Virus record (IMG/VR): IMGVR_UViG_3300042904_000308
Location: 32,001 to 96,000 of that record
Origin: a virus
Direction: 5' to 3' (one strand)
DNA: 64,000 nt
The notes beneath the pieces were generated by a model, which was given only the letters and a program-made list of their open reading frames with translations, ran no database searches and was not told the origin of the DNA. Position 1 is the first letter of the stretch. Each line of letters begins with the position of its first letter. A program made the position numbers and the translations under genes. Shown piece after piece: positions 29,753 through 45,536 of the stretch.

Positions 29753-30310
29753 TCAGAACGGCACAGGCTCCTTGCTCTTTGCCGCAGCCGCTGACTTCGA
29801 GGTCGCCGCCCGTCGCTCGTTGGCGATGACGACCTCCTCGTAGGACGCATAGCTCTCGACGTCACCGAACCCAGCCGCGCCGAGGGCACGACCGATGGCG
29901 CTCGTCTCGCAGTCCTCGCGAGGGCTGGTGTTCTTCGCCGCCTTGCCCGACGACTCCCGCAGGTTCTGGCTCTGGCCGTAGTAGGTACCGTAGAGCCCCT
30001 TGCCCAGCTCCGCGATGATGGACGGCTTCACCGAGTCGGGGATGTCCGCACTGATCGACGCATCGTTGATCGCTCGAAACACCCGCTCATTGAGCACCGT
30101 CACCCGCGCCTGGATGATGATGTACTTCTCATCGTCGGGATCGAGCTCCTTCGTCTCCACGCCGACCAGCTGTCCAATGCCGTGCGCGAGGTAGAGCCGA
30201 CCGTTGACCGTGATGTAATCGTTTCCGCTCAGGACTTTGATGTAGCCCTTCGATTTCAAGTCCTTCTTATCAATGTTGTGTGCTGGCAACTCTTCCTCCT
30301 GTCGTGCCAC
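29753..30310 (-). CDS. Rad52/Sak-like single-strand annealing protein
   Basis: GNDYITVNGRL, EDCETSAIGRALGAAGFG..ASYEEV, C-terminal PF. Confidence 0.75.
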   Translation of the reverse strand: MARQEEELPAHNIDKKDLKSKGYIKVLSGNDYITVNGRLYLAHGIGQLVGVETKELDPDDEKYIIIQARVTVLNERVFRAINDASISADIPDSVKPSIIAELGKGLYGTYYGQSQNLRESSGKAAKNTSPREDCETSAIGRALGAAGFGDVESYASYEEVVIANERRAATSKSAAAAKSKEPVPF

Positions 30311-30518
30311 TAATCCAGTGTTATCTTAAGCTAAATGTCTAGGGGCTCCGCCCCCTCGTTTTCAGATACCGTACGTTAGGCCGCTCGGTAAAGTGTGAGG
30401 CCCAGGCTTGAGAAGGGTGCTGTGTTCCTGTGTGCCTTCATCAATGCGCTCTGTACCATGTTTCCGATCAGTTGCCGTATGTTCTACCCCCGCCTTCCTG
30501 ACAATAAATACAGTCCTC

Positions 30519-30552
30519 CACTATTAATATCGTCACAGGCCGCTCGAAACTT
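30519..30552 (-). promoter_or_regulatory. Repeated phage promoter, copy 4 (head of replication block)
   Basis: cactattaatatcgtcacaggccgctcgaaactt on + strand. Confidence 0.8.
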
Positions 30553-30686
30553 TCACTTTCCGCAGGCAATCCTGAAAATTGGTCCGATCTGCTGGTGTGC
30601 GTTTTGTTAAAGTCCGTCGGTGGGCCTCCCTGCTTGGGTCAGATCGCGTCAGCGGGAGGGGCAATCTGCTCACGGCGCGTGACCAG

Positions 30687-30721
30687 AAAAAGAAAAACGC
30701 CCCGACGTCGTTGTCGAGGCG
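30687..30721 (-). terminator. Intrinsic terminator ending the early-region transcript
   Basis: CGCCTCGAC-loop-GTCGGGGCG followed by TTTTTCTTTTT. Confidence 0.8.
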
Positions 30722-32187: not shown

Positions 32188-32217
32188 AGCATAGACCACA
32201 GGTTATTAACGTGTCAA
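32188..32217 (-). promoter_or_regulatory. sigma70-like promoter with overlapping inverted repeat
   Basis: TTGACA-N18-TATGCT; ATGCTCACGT (32150-32159) / ACGTGAGCAT (32183-32192). Confidence 0.6.
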
Positions 32218-36871: not shown

Positions 36872-37871
36872 GATTGATCCTTTCGCAAGTCGATCATCTG
36901 CCAGCGGTCCATCACAGGGGTGCGCAGATCAAGCAGCGCGTGCGTGGTCGGACAGTCCTTGTCGAATACCACGTCGAACATTCCGAGAAACCGCCACACG
37001 CCAAAATCTCTAGGGTGGAAGTACCGTATCCCGTCCTCTCTGGCTCGCATATCGTCGAAGGACCGATGGTAGTCGTTCAAGGTGAGTAAGGGACGAGGCA
37101 CAGGTCCGTACGTTTCCCACACGTCGTCCAGCACGTCGTGCATCAGCCTGGCGAGATTCCCTCTCGTCTTGACCCGAATGACCTCTGCCATCACCGTCGT
37201 CGGTGGTGGGATGTCCTTCAAATCCATTATCACGACAGGCATCGTTTTCTGAGCATACGTCTCGAAGTAGTCCGAGGGATAGTCTTCGATCACCCTGCAC
37301 CCCCGAAGAACCCGACGAACCGCTGCCACAGTGAGGCCTGCTCCAATCGTGCCGCCAGCACCTGGACCTCCTCTCGCTGCTGGTGTCGCTGCTTGTTCAG
37401 CTCTGGCAACACGACCGCATACACATTGCGGCAGTACCGTGTCGCTTCATGTGGACGCTCTTGGACGATGACCTCCAGCGCGTTCTGAATGGCCGCGAGC
37501 GCGTCGTCAATCGCCTGTTCGCTGTCCGCGTACCTGTACTGCACGAGCGCGGTTCGGAGCGCGTCATGCTTCACAATGTCGTTGACCTCGATTCCCATTC
37601 TTCCCCTCACTACACTAATACACTGACGTAGTCGAACTTGGGCAGACGCTTTCGGAACGCTGCCGCCCTGCCCCCGATCTTGACCGTGTAGCCGCTGCGC
37701 ATCGCCGTGAAGTGCGGTGTGCAGACGGTCGCCTGGGCAATCTCGGGGCTTCGCGTCGAGGCGTACTCAACCTCGACCAGATATCGCCGCTGGTTCATGC
37801 AGCGGGTGCCTGCCTTGGTCTGGCAGTCGCATGCTGATGCGTCCATGTCTCTCCTCATATAGGAACTAAGG

Positions 37872-38072
37872 CTCTCCCTTCTGGCGTCCTGGCCGCGTAT
37901 CACGCTCGTCAGCGTGGCGGCTGGGGGCACCCCTGACCCTGCGGGTGCGGTCTGCCTTGCCGCACCTTTCGCCTGCAGGTTGCCGCTGGGCGCACCATAC
38001 GATCTGCAGAGGTCCGCTCTTCTCGAACCCGTCACAGCACTCCGTGCCTGATCAGGACGCCAGAAGGGAGAG
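37872..38072 (-). ncRNA. Candidate structured ncRNA closed by a perfect 20-bp stem
   Basis: CTCTCCCTTCTGGCGTCCTG (37872-37891) / exact reverse complement (38053-38072); internal hairpins; downstream of promoter and boxA-like motif. Confidence 0.6.
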
Positions 38073-38138
38073 TGTTGGCCCCGTGGTTGGGGCCAGTATT
38101 CACTTGTCAAAGTTCAGAATGAAGCTGCGTCTCTCTTC

Positions 38139-38168
38139 ACTATACGCGAAGACGCAACTAGCTGTCAA
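38139..38168 (-). promoter_or_regulatory. sigma70-like promoter followed by boxA-like GAACTTTGACAA (38104-38115)
   Basis: TTGACA-N18-TATAGT. Confidence 0.7.
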
Positions 38169-39424
38169 GGAACTAACGCGAGGCCTGATATTCAAGCTCG
38201 TTTTCGTAGTATGAGCGAACGAGTGCCTGGAGCCTGAGAATCTCTCGCTCGTGGTTGTCATTGTCGGAGTCGTACATTTCCTGCACGGCCTCCCTGCATG
38301 CTTCAGCTATAAGTCCGTCAGAGTCTTGCATGGTCCTCCCTCATTTTTACGTCGTTCCGTTCGGTCAATTCAGCGAACAGCCGCTCGACGTCCTGCCCGT
38401 ACAGTGTAATGAAGATCGGGGCTCCTCCACTCCTCCGTCCTATCGTCAGGGTGCCATCCTCGTCGATGTCCCAGCGAGGCCCAGCGTCGAGGGGATGCTC
38501 GTCGAGCTTCGCCAGCACGCGGTCCTGCCTCGCAAACTGCCGCCGAATTCGCGCCTCCTCTCGCGGGTCGGTGACGCCTCGTCGCCTGATGAAGTCATCA
38601 GCGCTGCTCATGAGCAGCCTCCCTCGATACGATGTACCGCTCAAGCCTGCGTAGCTCGGTGCCGAAGTCGTGCATGAATGCCTCCTGCCCGACCGCCTCA
38701 CGATGCTCGTACAGGCTGCTGGTCAGCGAGGAGAGCACAAGGTTCCACATCGTCACGAACTGCTCCCGAGCTACGAGAACGTGGGTTTCCTGAATCTCGT
38801 CGATCAGCCATTCGGCCTCCATCCAGGCGCTCGATCCGAGACATGCGCCATCTATCCGTGCTTGCACCCGCTCGATCATTGCACGTCGTTCGTCAGCCAT
38901 TACGCTTCCTCCAGTCGTACGCCGCGTTCTCCTCAGCGGCCTCGATTTCCTCCGCCGTCAGCGGCAGCACCGAAGCCTTGGCGACCTGCAGCGCGTCCCA
39001 CCGTTCGCCATCATCGGCAAAGTTCAGCGGGTTCGGCGGACAGCGTAGATCGACCATCGTGTCGTCGCTGTCGTTCTCATCAAGCTCCCCACCGAAGAAA
39101 GTCACGAGCCGCCGAGCCAGAGCGATGTTGTCGGCGCAGGACTTCATACTGAAGCCTGGTCCTACCCACTCAGACGCCCCTAGCTGCCAGTGGAAGTAGA
39201 ACATCCGCTGGTACCCGTTCAGCGGAGACTCGAAAAAGACCGTCAGCATATCCCCGTCACTGTTTGGCACGATCTTCACGACGTCACATTCCGCATGCAC
39301 CGAGGGTATGTGTGGCCTGACCTCCTTCTCGTTGCCGAGGCAGAAGGCCGTCACGTCGAAAATATCTCGCGCCTTCGCGCTGGAAGGGAAAATGACCTTC
39401 AGATTGACTCCCATATTGTCCCTC

Positions 39425-45170: not shown

Positions 45171-45536
45171 CATCGTGACTTCCTCTCTCTACCCTAACAC
45201 TCGCTCGATCAACGTTCGTGCCCTCATCGACGGCTCCCGCGTCAAGAAGCCCTTGCCGCGTGCTGCCTCGTAAGGAACGGGAGTCTCAAACTGAGCAGCT
45301 GTCACATCCAGCACCTGACCGTCGAGCGTCCGCAGAAACCAGTGTGACGCCCCCTCGTGCCTCACGTGCATCGGTGTATCGACCCTGCCCCGTAGATGGT
45401 ACAGAGCTTCACTAGCCACGTAGCAGTGCCCCGCCAGCGGATGGCTTCGACCCCTCCATTCAGGCCGCAGCAGATCAGGCGTGAGACGTGCAACAACCGC
45501 GTCAACCATCGTGACTACCTCTCTCTACCCTAACAC
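45171..45536. repeat. 30-bp direct repeats (45171-45200, 45507-45536) bracketing one gene
   Basis: catcgtgactWcctctctctaccctaacac, 29/30 identical. Confidence 0.85.
45189..45509 (-). CDS. Small papain/transglutaminase-like protein (Cys-His-Asp triad)
   Basis: GHCYVASEALY, SHWFL, VLDVTAAQF. Confidence 0.6.
   Translation of the reverse strand: MVDAVVARLTPDLLRPEWRGRSHPLAGHCYVASEALYHLRGRVDTPMHVRHEGASHWFLRTLDGQVLDVTAAQFETPVPYEAARGKGFLTREPSMRARTLIERVLG

What the first reader, a model, noticed from the sequence alone, without database searches (positions are those of the whole stretch)
37872..38168. Promoter, boxA-like motif and a 200-nt RNA clamped by a perfect 20-bp stem
Seen, in transcript order: TTGACA-N18-TATAGT, GAACTTTGACAA, a GGCCCC/GGGGCC hairpin, then a domain closed by an exact 20-bp inverted repeat containing hairpins (GGTGCGG/CCGCACC, CTGCAG/CTGCAG, CACGCT/AGCGTG). 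Known: rRNA precursors use boxA plus long RNase III-cleaved closing stems. Inference: a dedicated stable ncRNA expressed and excised like an rRNA; I cannot assign it to a known family.
Basis: partly seen in the sequence, partly recalled or inferred. Interest (0 to 1): 0.7.

Follow-up and report, generated by a model that had tools for sequence, protein, structure and literature searches.

The report
Phage promoter with clamped RNA leader
An uncultured 115-kb phage has a strong internal promoter followed by about 285 untranslated bases whose main part is pinned shut by a perfect 20-base-pair helix, laid out like the phage lambda N-gene leader or a bacterial rRNA leader, so it is most likely a control and RNA-processing leader for the next genes and not a free-standing RNA gene.

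Summary
The promoter (11 of 12) is the best sigma-70 match in the whole 115-kb phage record. The 20/20 inverted repeat is the longest in the genome (next longest 14; shuffles reach 15 at most).

Three results change the reading:
- The 161 nt inside the clamp fold no better than shuffled sequence (z -0.96), so only the clamp is exceptional.
- No terminator follows. A strong Shine-Dalgarno site and a 78-aa gene start 17-26 nt after the clamp, so this is a 5' leader.
- The "boxA-like" motif plus a long-range clamp recurs in this phage's main early leader. There a 14/17 match to the motif sits 4 nt before a bulged 19-bp helix that encloses 118 nt. This favours an RNA-level module over a mobile element or an invertible switch.

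A fold of the lambda pL-nutL-N leader shows the same order of parts. No homologue was found in any collection searched, so covariation cannot be tested. A 9-bp direct repeat flanks the whole cassette (empirical p about 0.01), which hints that it was inserted between two genes.

Verdict: a new variant of a known kind of leader, of modest interest. The scan has reported similar rRNA-style phage RNA units on other DNA.

The parts
38139..38168 (-). Sigma-70-type promoter, TTGACA-18 nt-TATAGT. The inferred start of transcription is near 38132. The -35 box begins 5 nt after the stop codon of the upstream gene.
   Evidence: 11/12, the best match in the 115-kb record.
38123..38159 (.). Operator-like inverted repeat (AGTTGCGTCT / AGACGCAGCT, 9 of 10) that brackets the -10 box.
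   Evidence: pair I9. Its significance was not established.
38097..38115 (-). BoxA-like leader motif GAACUUUGACAAGUGAAUA, starting about 19 nt after the inferred start of transcription.
   Evidence: the only other match with 3 or fewer mismatches in the window is 55855-55839, in the main early leader. ACYTTRACAA occurs 3 times, all on the transcribed strand in untranslated stretches.
38077..38094 (-). GC hairpin with a 6-bp stem and a 6-nt loop AACCAC, 9 nt after the motif. It occupies the position that boxB holds in a lambda nut site.
38053..38072 (-). 5' arm of the clamp (CUCUCCCUUCUGGCGUCCUG).
37892..38052 (-). Enclosed 161-nt interior, GC 68%. It is non-coding in all six frames, and its fold is no better than shuffled sequence.
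37872..37891 (-). 3' arm of the clamp (CAGGACGCCAGAAGGGAGAG).
37861..37872 (.). Downstream copy of the flanking direct repeat (AGGAACTAA exact; 11 of 12 with the two copies extended).
   Evidence: (D5).
38168..38179 (.). Upstream copy of the flanking direct repeat. It holds the stop codon of the upstream gene and overlaps the -35 box.
   Evidence: (D5).
37610..37856 (-). SD GAGGAGAG (37856-37849) and the first gene of the unit. The gene encodes 78 aa, is basic and Cys-rich, and is an orphan.
38173..38331 (-). Upstream 52-aa gene. Transcripts reading through it would enter the element.
55682..55855 (-). Sister module in the main early leader. The motif ACCUUGACAAGUUCAUA (55855-55839) runs into a bulged 19-bp (8+3+8) long-range helix, 55841-55822 with 55703-55682, which encloses 118 nt.
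30698..30721 (-). First strong intrinsic terminator downstream (9-bp stem followed by TTTTTCTTTT). It is the likely end of the unit started at 38168.

Best explanation
The element is an internal early promoter plus a regulatory 5' leader of about 285 nt. It heads the next block of minus-strand genes, from 37846 down to the terminator near 30.7 kb.

Proposed mechanism:
1. Host sigma-70 RNA polymerase starts near 38132.
2. The nascent RNA first displays the phage's boxA-like motif and a small GC hairpin. Together these form a nut-like site. It is inferred to load an elongation-modifying (Nus-type or phage-specific) complex, which keeps the polymerase termination-resistant across the long untranslated stretch.
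3. Holding the 5' end near the RNA exit channel would also help the 5' arm find its partner 161 nt later, so the perfect 20-bp helix forms.
4. That helix is a minimal full substrate for host RNase III. Cleavage would sever the nut-like site, and any read-through RNA from upstream genes, from the downstream message. The message would then begin a few tens of nt before its SD.
5. This would set the stability and translation of the first gene, as RNase III does in the lambda N leader.

The excised piece of roughly 180-200 nt is most likely a by-product.

Shown here: the sequence features, their statistical rarity, the lack of a terminator, the non-coding interior, and the recurrence of the module within the phage. 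Inferred: transcription, factor loading, RNase III cleavage and the regulatory outcome.

Separately, the cassette looks as if it was inserted into a once-tight gene junction, because a 9-bp direct repeat flanks it. That concerns its origin and is compatible with this function.
For: - The promoter is the best sigma-70 match in the genome.
- The clamp is far beyond chance and is present in the MFE and centroid folds of every context tried.
- No terminator lies on the transcribed strand between 38139 and 30721.
- An SD and an ATG follow the clamp at 17-26 nt.
- The interior is non-coding.
- The 17-nt motif recurs only once more in the window, in the main early leader, immediately before a bulged 19-bp helix that encloses 118 nt. 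A third, weaker copy of the motif (ACUUUACAA, one base shorter) precedes an 11-bp clamp.
- A further copy of the 10-nt core sits in the untranslated stretch after the terminator at 30.7 kb.
- The fold of the lambda pL-N leader gives the same order of parts: boxA, 8 nt, boxB, a roughly 16-bp bulged long-range helix enclosing about 90 nt, then the SD of N.
- PMC5725501 states that nutL lies about 200 bp upstream of N, that the intervening RNA is highly structured, and that RNase III modulates repression (it cites Wilson 2002).
- PMC8632103 describes how the rrn complex holds the nut-like element and delivers the 5' strand to its distant partner, forming the RNase III site.
Against: - The motif misses the gamma-proteobacterial boxA consensus GYTCTTTAANA (PMC5725501) at 3 positions, and matches of that quality to the E. 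coli boxA are common.
- The host is unknown.
- No N-like protein (PF11438) and no phage RNase III were found.
- The clamp does not sequester the SD, so the benefit of cleavage is unclear.
- The interior shows no excess structure.
- A helix with 20 of 20 Watson-Crick pairs and no G-U pair is also what a DNA-level repeat would look like.
- No homologue exists, so nothing is supported by conservation or covariation.
- The degenerate 10-nt core (ACYTTRACAA) was defined after seeing its copies, so the enrichment is inflated.
Confidence: 0.5

Rival explanations
1. It is a stand-alone, stable, trans-acting non-coding RNA gene. The clamp-closed RNA of about 200 nt is the product, cut out by RNase III and protected by its paired ends. 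The downstream genes merely share the promoter.
For: It has its own strong promoter. Paired 5' and 3' ends are typical of stable RNAs. The interior has elevated GC, 68% against 58% for the genome. The scan has reported other phage RNAs with the same rRNA-style framing, some of them conserved (unchecked notes).
Against: The interior fold is at chance level. No Rfam family matches even at E up to 10. No terminator follows, and an SD and a gene do follow at once. The element is single-copy and has no homologue in any collection searched. No Ro60/TROVE partner was found.
Confidence: 0.12
2. It is an invertible DNA switch in a 5' UTR. The 20-bp perfect repeats would be recombination sites, and a phage recombinase would flip the 161-bp segment. 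The leader RNA would change and the downstream genes would turn on or off after transcription has begun, as in the Clostridioides difficile flgB and cwpV switches.
For: The geometry nearly matches the flgB switch, which is 154 bp flanked by 21-bp repeats, lies between promoter and first gene, and acts after initiation (PMC5386303). Perfect repeats are expected of recombination sites. The record encodes a tyrosine recombinase and a large serine recombinase. In the inverted orientation one hairpin would be followed by UUU. Candidate viral invertons have been reported (PMC13501310).
Against: The sister module in the main leader has a bulged, imperfect helix (8+3+8) in the same position relative to the same motif, which is an RNA-style helix and not a pair of recombination sites. 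Both recombinases lie 36-44 kb away and look like integrases. No convincing terminator or promoter appears in either orientation. The G-over-C bias of the interior matches its neighbours in the present orientation, although this is within one standard deviation.
Confidence: 0.1
3. It is an inserted foreign cassette or a relic of a mobile element. A segment of about 300 bp landed between two tightly packed genes. The 20-bp repeats are the ends of a small MITE-like element carried within it, and the RNA features have no evolved role beyond supplying a promoter.
For: The exact 9-mer AGGAACTAA occurs only twice in the window, and the two copies exactly flank the cassette. The empirical chance of such a repeat at two boundary windows is about 1%. 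Removing one copy plus the cassette would leave a normal stop-spacer-SD-ATG junction. The interior GC is higher than the genome's. The phage has another unit bracketed by a 30-nt direct repeat, at 45171 and 45507. The perfect terminal-style repeat encloses an unremarkable interior.
Against: The direct repeat does not abut the inverted-repeat ends, and no duplication flanks those ends. The ends defined by the direct repeat are not inverted repeats of each other. No other copy of the arm, or of a gapped 13+13 arm pattern, was found in this genome, in 185,579 species' genomes or in IMG/VR; the arm 20-mer alone, also scanned against JGI metagenomes, gave a single hit that is an unrelated chance match. 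The motif-plus-clamp module recurs in the phage's own main leader, which argues for native function.
Confidence: 0.13

Closest known systems
Phage lambda pL-nutL-N leader (boxA, boxB, RNase III-sensitive structure, N gene)
   Same: The order and spacing of parts are the same. A strong host-type promoter is followed by a boxA-type motif, then 8-9 nt, then a small hairpin. A long-range helix then closes a branched domain, and the SD and a small basic first gene come soon after the helix (ours; lambda). The role of RNase III in the lambda leader is cited from PMC5725501.
   Different: There is no sequence homology. Our motif differs from CGCUCUUA. The hairpin loop is AACCAC and not a purine-rich pentaloop. 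The clamp is perfect, at 20 bp against about 16 bp with a bulge, and it encloses 161 nt against about 90. No N homologue was found. The promoter is internal to a long early arm and is not the main early promoter.
Bacterial rrn operon leader (boxB-boxA-boxC, rrn antitermination complex, RNase III stem around 16S)
   Same: A boxA-type motif sits shortly before the 5' strand of a long-range helix that RNase III could cut. PMC8632103 gives the mechanistic reason for placing boxA next to the 5' strand.
   Different: The enclosed RNA is 161 nt with no evident fold of its own and is followed by protein genes. The motif fails the gamma-proteobacterial consensus at 3 positions. The order here is motif then hairpin, as in lambda, whereas in rrn leaders the hairpin comes first.
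This phage's own main early leader (55450-56100), described by an earlier follow-up as T7-like or rrn-like
   Same: It has the same 17-nt motif (14 of 17 identical) directly ahead of a helix of about 19 bp that encloses 118 nt, and it follows a sigma-70 promoter on the same strand.
   Different: Those clamps are bulged and shorter, there are two in tandem, and there is no GC hairpin between motif and clamp. The interiors share no sequence.
Clostridioides difficile flgB (Cdi4) and cwpV (Cdi1) invertible 5' UTR switches
   Same: A segment of 150-200 bp is flanked by 20-21-bp inverted repeats and lies between a promoter and the first gene (PMC5386303).
   Different: Inversion has not been shown here. 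No recombinase is encoded nearby. The repeats here are GC-rich and perfect. The sister module has imperfect arms.

Membership tests
NusB/NusE-binding boxA (rrn or lambda type) | Match to the boxA consensus (gamma-proteobacteria: GYTCTTTAANA, PMC5725501) | tested here: not met
   GAACTTTGACA differs at consensus positions 2, 3 and 8, while the CTTT core (positions 4-7) is kept. Matches to the E. coli 12-mer with 3 mismatches number 43 in the window against 27 expected. The host is unknown, so its own boxA may differ.
NusB/NusE-binding boxA (rrn or lambda type) | Position in an untranslated leader shortly after a promoter, on the transcribed strand | tested here: met
   The motif starts about 19 nt after the inferred start of transcription. 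Sister copies lie in other leaders at 55846, 56050 and 30604.
NusB/NusE-binding boxA (rrn or lambda type) | Binding of NusB-NusE and resistance to Rho-dependent termination | not testable with these tools
   This needs a binding assay or reporters in the (unknown) host.
Lambda-type nut site | boxA, a short spacer, then a boxB hairpin with a purine-rich GNRA-like loop, read by an N protein with an arginine-rich motif | tested here: not met
   The 9-nt spacer and a 6-bp hairpin are present, but the loop is AACCAC. There is no PF11438 match in the record. The 78-aa first gene is basic but an orphan, and its model is poor.
RNase III processing helix | About two turns (20 bp or more) of double-stranded RNA formed by the transcript | tested here: met
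   20 of 20 Watson-Crick pairs, present in the MFE and centroid folds in all contexts tried.
RNase III processing helix | Cleavage in vivo or in vitro, lost in an rnc mutant | not testable with these tools
   No transcript data are available, and the phage encodes no RNase III of its own.
Any Rfam family | Covariance-model score at or above the gathering threshold | tested here: not met
   There is no hit at gathering score. The best permissive hits have E 0.24 to 2.5 and are clearly spurious.
MITE / IS-derived element | Terminal inverted repeats | tested here: met
   Perfect 20-bp repeats bound a 201-bp unit.
MITE / IS-derived element | Target-site duplication directly abutting the terminal repeats | tested here: not met
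   The flanks are ...CTAAGG and TGTTGG..., with no duplication. The 9-bp direct repeat abuts only one arm and lies 95 nt beyond the other.
MITE / IS-derived element | Multiple copies in a genome or across genomes | tested here: not met
   It is single-copy in the record. The arm 20-mer and a gapped 13+13 pattern are absent from genome contigs and viral contigs; the arm 20-mer alone, also scanned against the metagenome collection, gave a single hit that is unrelated.
Inverton (invertible regulatory segment) | Inverted repeats flanking a segment of 100-500 bp next to a regulated gene, with a recombinase encoded in the genome | tested here: met
   The recombinases are distant and resemble integrases.
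Inverton (invertible regulatory segment) | Both orientations present in a population | not testable with these tools

The most novel reading that the evidence does not exclude
The motif-plus-clamp unit could be a phage device that makes discrete, end-paired RNAs from inside mRNA leaders, with three such units in this phage. In that case the 180-200-nt RNA released by RNase III would act in trans on the host or on the phage's own expression. The perfect 20-bp repeat could also double as a site for DNA inversion.
Probability: 0.12. Interest if true: 0.65.

Novelty: new variant of a known kind. Interest (0 to 1): 0.32.

Why it matters
If the reading holds, an isolated phage lineage has independently built the same leader logic as lambda's N leader and bacterial rRNA operons. 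Its DNA polymerase is at most 33% identical to that of any cultured phage. The logic is an elongation-control motif placed just ahead of a long-range helix that RNase III can cut. The phage uses it at least three times. That would add to the case that boxA-style control plus RNase III processing is a general, convergent tool of phage early transcription. It would also give a compact 300-bp cassette that can be tested in reporters. As it stands, this is one unconserved example supported by sequence alone.

Tried and rejected
Homologue searches, all empty:
- blastn of the region against 50,697 phage records and against plasmids.
- The exact 20-mer arm in IMG/VR and in GTDB genomes.
- The exact 20-mer arm in JGI metagenomes. 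Its one hit, L004, shares nothing else with the phage by blastn or tblastx and has only one arm, so it is a chance match.
- A gapped 13+13 arm pattern in genomes and in IMG/VR.

Synteny through neighbouring proteins failed:
- The 78-aa and 227-aa neighbours and the DNA polymerase have no close relatives in IMG/VR; the 78-aa protein, the only one of the three also sought in the JGI metagenome contigs, has none there either.
- The 5.8-billion-protein search returned only the proteins themselves.

Other readings tested and dropped:
- Coding. An open 166-codon frame runs through the element, but it has no SD, an odd composition and no codon signal in any frame.
- Replication origin. There is no local change in skew; skew follows the direction of transcription.
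- Retron, Ro/Y RNA, phage RNA polymerase or N protein partners. There are no RT, TROVE, T7-type RNAP or N36 matches; the RNAP search also rang in no control genome.
- Decayed duplicate of the gene junction. The gapped alignment of the two junctions is only marginal, with 16 of 500 shuffles as good.
- Function of the first gene. Pfam, PHROGs, the protein atlas and an AlphaFold model (pLDDT 46) were all uninformative.

Full report
**Context.** The window is bases 32001-96000 of a 115,172-bp IMG/VR virus record, linear and about 80% complete. GC is 58%.
- The minus strand from about 56.1 kb down to about 0.5 kb of the window carries a long arm of small orphan genes. After these come replication and nucleotide-metabolism genes: DnaB-like helicase, dNMP kinase, family A DNA polymerase, primase, ribonucleotide reductase, thymidylate synthase and two RNA ligases.
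- The DNA polymerase is at most 33% identical to that of any cultured phage, so the lineage is isolated.
- The finding lies in the gap between a 52-aa gene (38331-38173) and a 78-aa gene (37846-37610), both on the minus strand.

- The promoter TTGACA-18-TATAGT (38168-38139) is the only 11/12 sigma-70 match in the whole record. Only six other sites reach 10/12.
- The 20/20 inverted repeat (38072-38053 with 37891-37872) is the longest exact inverted repeat within 600 nt in 115 kb. The next is 14 nt, and 20 dinucleotide shuffles reached at most 15.
- The 201-nt unit folds with z = -6.3.

**What the tools add against a "structured ncRNA".**
- Without the clamp, the 161-nt interior folds at chance level: z -0.96, with 38 of 200 shuffles as good. 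The opposite strand gives z -0.23.
- Rfam has nothing at gathering score or at E up to 10.
- The interior is not coding in any frame by a codon model trained on this genome. It scores -0.12 to -0.55, against 0.33 +/- 0.18 for real frames. The open 166-codon frame through it has no SD.
- No terminator follows. The first good intrinsic terminator on this strand is at 30721-30698.
- The 3' arm is followed after 15 nt by the SD GAGGAGAG and then by the ATG at 37846. The RNA is therefore a leader of about 285 nt for a unit of about 7.4 kb.
- Transcripts from the upstream gene can also run into it, since the -35 box starts 5 nt after that gene's stop codon.

**What the tools add in favour of an RNA-level control module.**
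- The 17 nt beginning with the boxA-like core (ACTTTGACAAGTGAATA) have only one other match with 3 or fewer mismatches in the window, against 0.05 expected. That match is at 55855-55839, inside the main early leader.
- There the motif runs straight into a bulged 19-bp (8+3+8) long-range helix, 55841-55822 with 55703-55682, enclosing 118 nt.
- An upstream, weaker copy of the motif (ACUUUACAA, one base shorter; 56058-56050) precedes an 11-bp clamp that also encloses about 118 nt.
- A fourth copy of the 10-nt core lies in the untranslated stretch just after the terminator at 30.7 kb. The degenerate 10-mer was defined after seeing the copies, so its enrichment figure is inflated.
- "Motif plus clamped domain" is thus a repeated device of this phage. 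Because the sister clamps are imperfect and bulged, they read as RNA helices and not as DNA recombination sites or transposon ends.

**Comparison with known systems.**
- I fetched lambda and folded its pL-to-N leader. The order of parts is boxA CGCUCUUA, 8 nt, the boxB hairpin, a roughly 16-bp bulged long-range helix enclosing about 90 nt, then the SD of N.
- Our element has the same order: motif, 9 nt, GC hairpin, 5 nt, a 20-bp helix enclosing 161 nt, 15 nt, SD, then a small basic first gene.
- PMC5725501 records that nutL sits about 200 bp before N, that the intervening RNA is highly structured, and that RNase III modulates N-mediated repression.
- PMC8632103 explains why a boxA-type site next to the 5' strand of a long-range helix makes mechanistic sense. 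The modified elongation complex holds the site at the RNA exit and delivers the 5' strand to its distant partner, forming the RNase III substrate.
- Membership is another matter. The motif fails GYTCTTTAANA at three positions. Matches of that quality to the E. coli boxA are common. The hairpin loop is not boxB-like, and no N homologue or phage RNase III is encoded. The element works like these leaders on paper but is not a member of their families.

**Origin.**
- The exact 9-mer AGGAACTAA occurs only twice in the window, at 37861 and 38168. It brackets the promoter-to-clamp cassette precisely, and the two copies match at 11 of 12 when extended.
- Random pairs of boundary windows in this genome show a direct match of 9 nt or more in about 1% of trials.
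- Deleting one repeat plus the cassette would leave a normal junction of stop, short spacer, SD and ATG.
- This hints that the cassette was inserted or is exchangeable. It is not a classical MITE. The repeat does not abut both inverted-repeat ends, the repeat-defined ends are not inverted repeats, and no other copy exists in the record, in 185,579 species' genomes or in IMG/VR, nor — for the arm 20-mer — in JGI metagenomes, apart from one unrelated chance hit there.

**The inverton rival.**
- A 161-bp segment between perfect 20-bp repeats, placed between a promoter and the first gene, is geometrically like the C. difficile flgB switch. That switch is 154 bp with 21-bp repeats and acts after initiation (PMC5386303).
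- The record encodes a tyrosine recombinase and a large serine recombinase.
- I could not test orientation heterogeneity. In silico inversion creates only a weak hairpin followed by UUU.
- The imperfect sister clamps argue against this reading. I keep it at about 10%.

**Limits.**
- No homologue of the element or of its neighbouring genes was found by any route.
- The host is unknown.
- The scan's notebook shows that similar rRNA-style phage RNA units have been reported on other DNA. Those are unchecked notes and were not used as evidence.

**Verdict.** The element is best read as an internal early promoter with a nut-like, RNase III-clamped leader (confidence 0.5). It is possibly an inserted cassette, a new variant of a known kind, and of modest interest.

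Noticed in passing
window 38123-38159: An inverted repeat with 10-nt arms (9 of 10) and a 17-nt gap brackets the -10 box of the promoter, which makes it a possible operator. The main early promoter has a comparable pair around its -10 region (GCGTTTG ... CAAACGC).
   Followed up: no
window 38047-38056 and 56119-56128: The palindrome CCTGATCAGG, which contains a GATC, sits at the inner end of the clamp. TCCTGATCAG also lies in the spacer of the main early promoter. A 10-nt match is at chance level by blastn.
   Followed up: partly
window 45171-45200 and 45507-45536: A 30-nt direct repeat (29 of 30) brackets a 336-bp unit.
   Followed up: partly
window 30280-30721: A strong intrinsic terminator (30721-30698, minus strand) is followed by about 400 nt of untranslated RNA that carries another copy of the leader motif (GGACTTTAACAA, 30615-30604), ahead of the next gene. 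This stretch folds no better than chance (z -0.22).
   Followed up: partly
window 32188-32217 and leader to 32032: Another sigma-70-type promoter (10/12) has a leader of about 150 nt. The leader holds an 8-bp hairpin (GCTCACGT ... ACGTGAGC) and CTGAATTTGACC, which is loosely like the leader motif.
   Followed up: no
window 46030-46150: Rfam tmRNA matches at 72.5 bits over only 121 nt, with the whole middle of the model skipped. ARAGORN calls nothing there. This looks like a miniature tmRNA-like gene in the phage.
   Followed up: no
genome 24423-26072 and 106018-107106 (outside the window): A large serine recombinase (about 550 aa) and a tyrosine integrase (about 362 aa) are both encoded in the record. 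The phage may be temperate, or the record may include foreign DNA.
   Followed up: no
window 55440-56100: The main early leader of 660 nt folds with z -5.0 and contains two motif-plus-clamp domains in tandem.
   Followed up: partly
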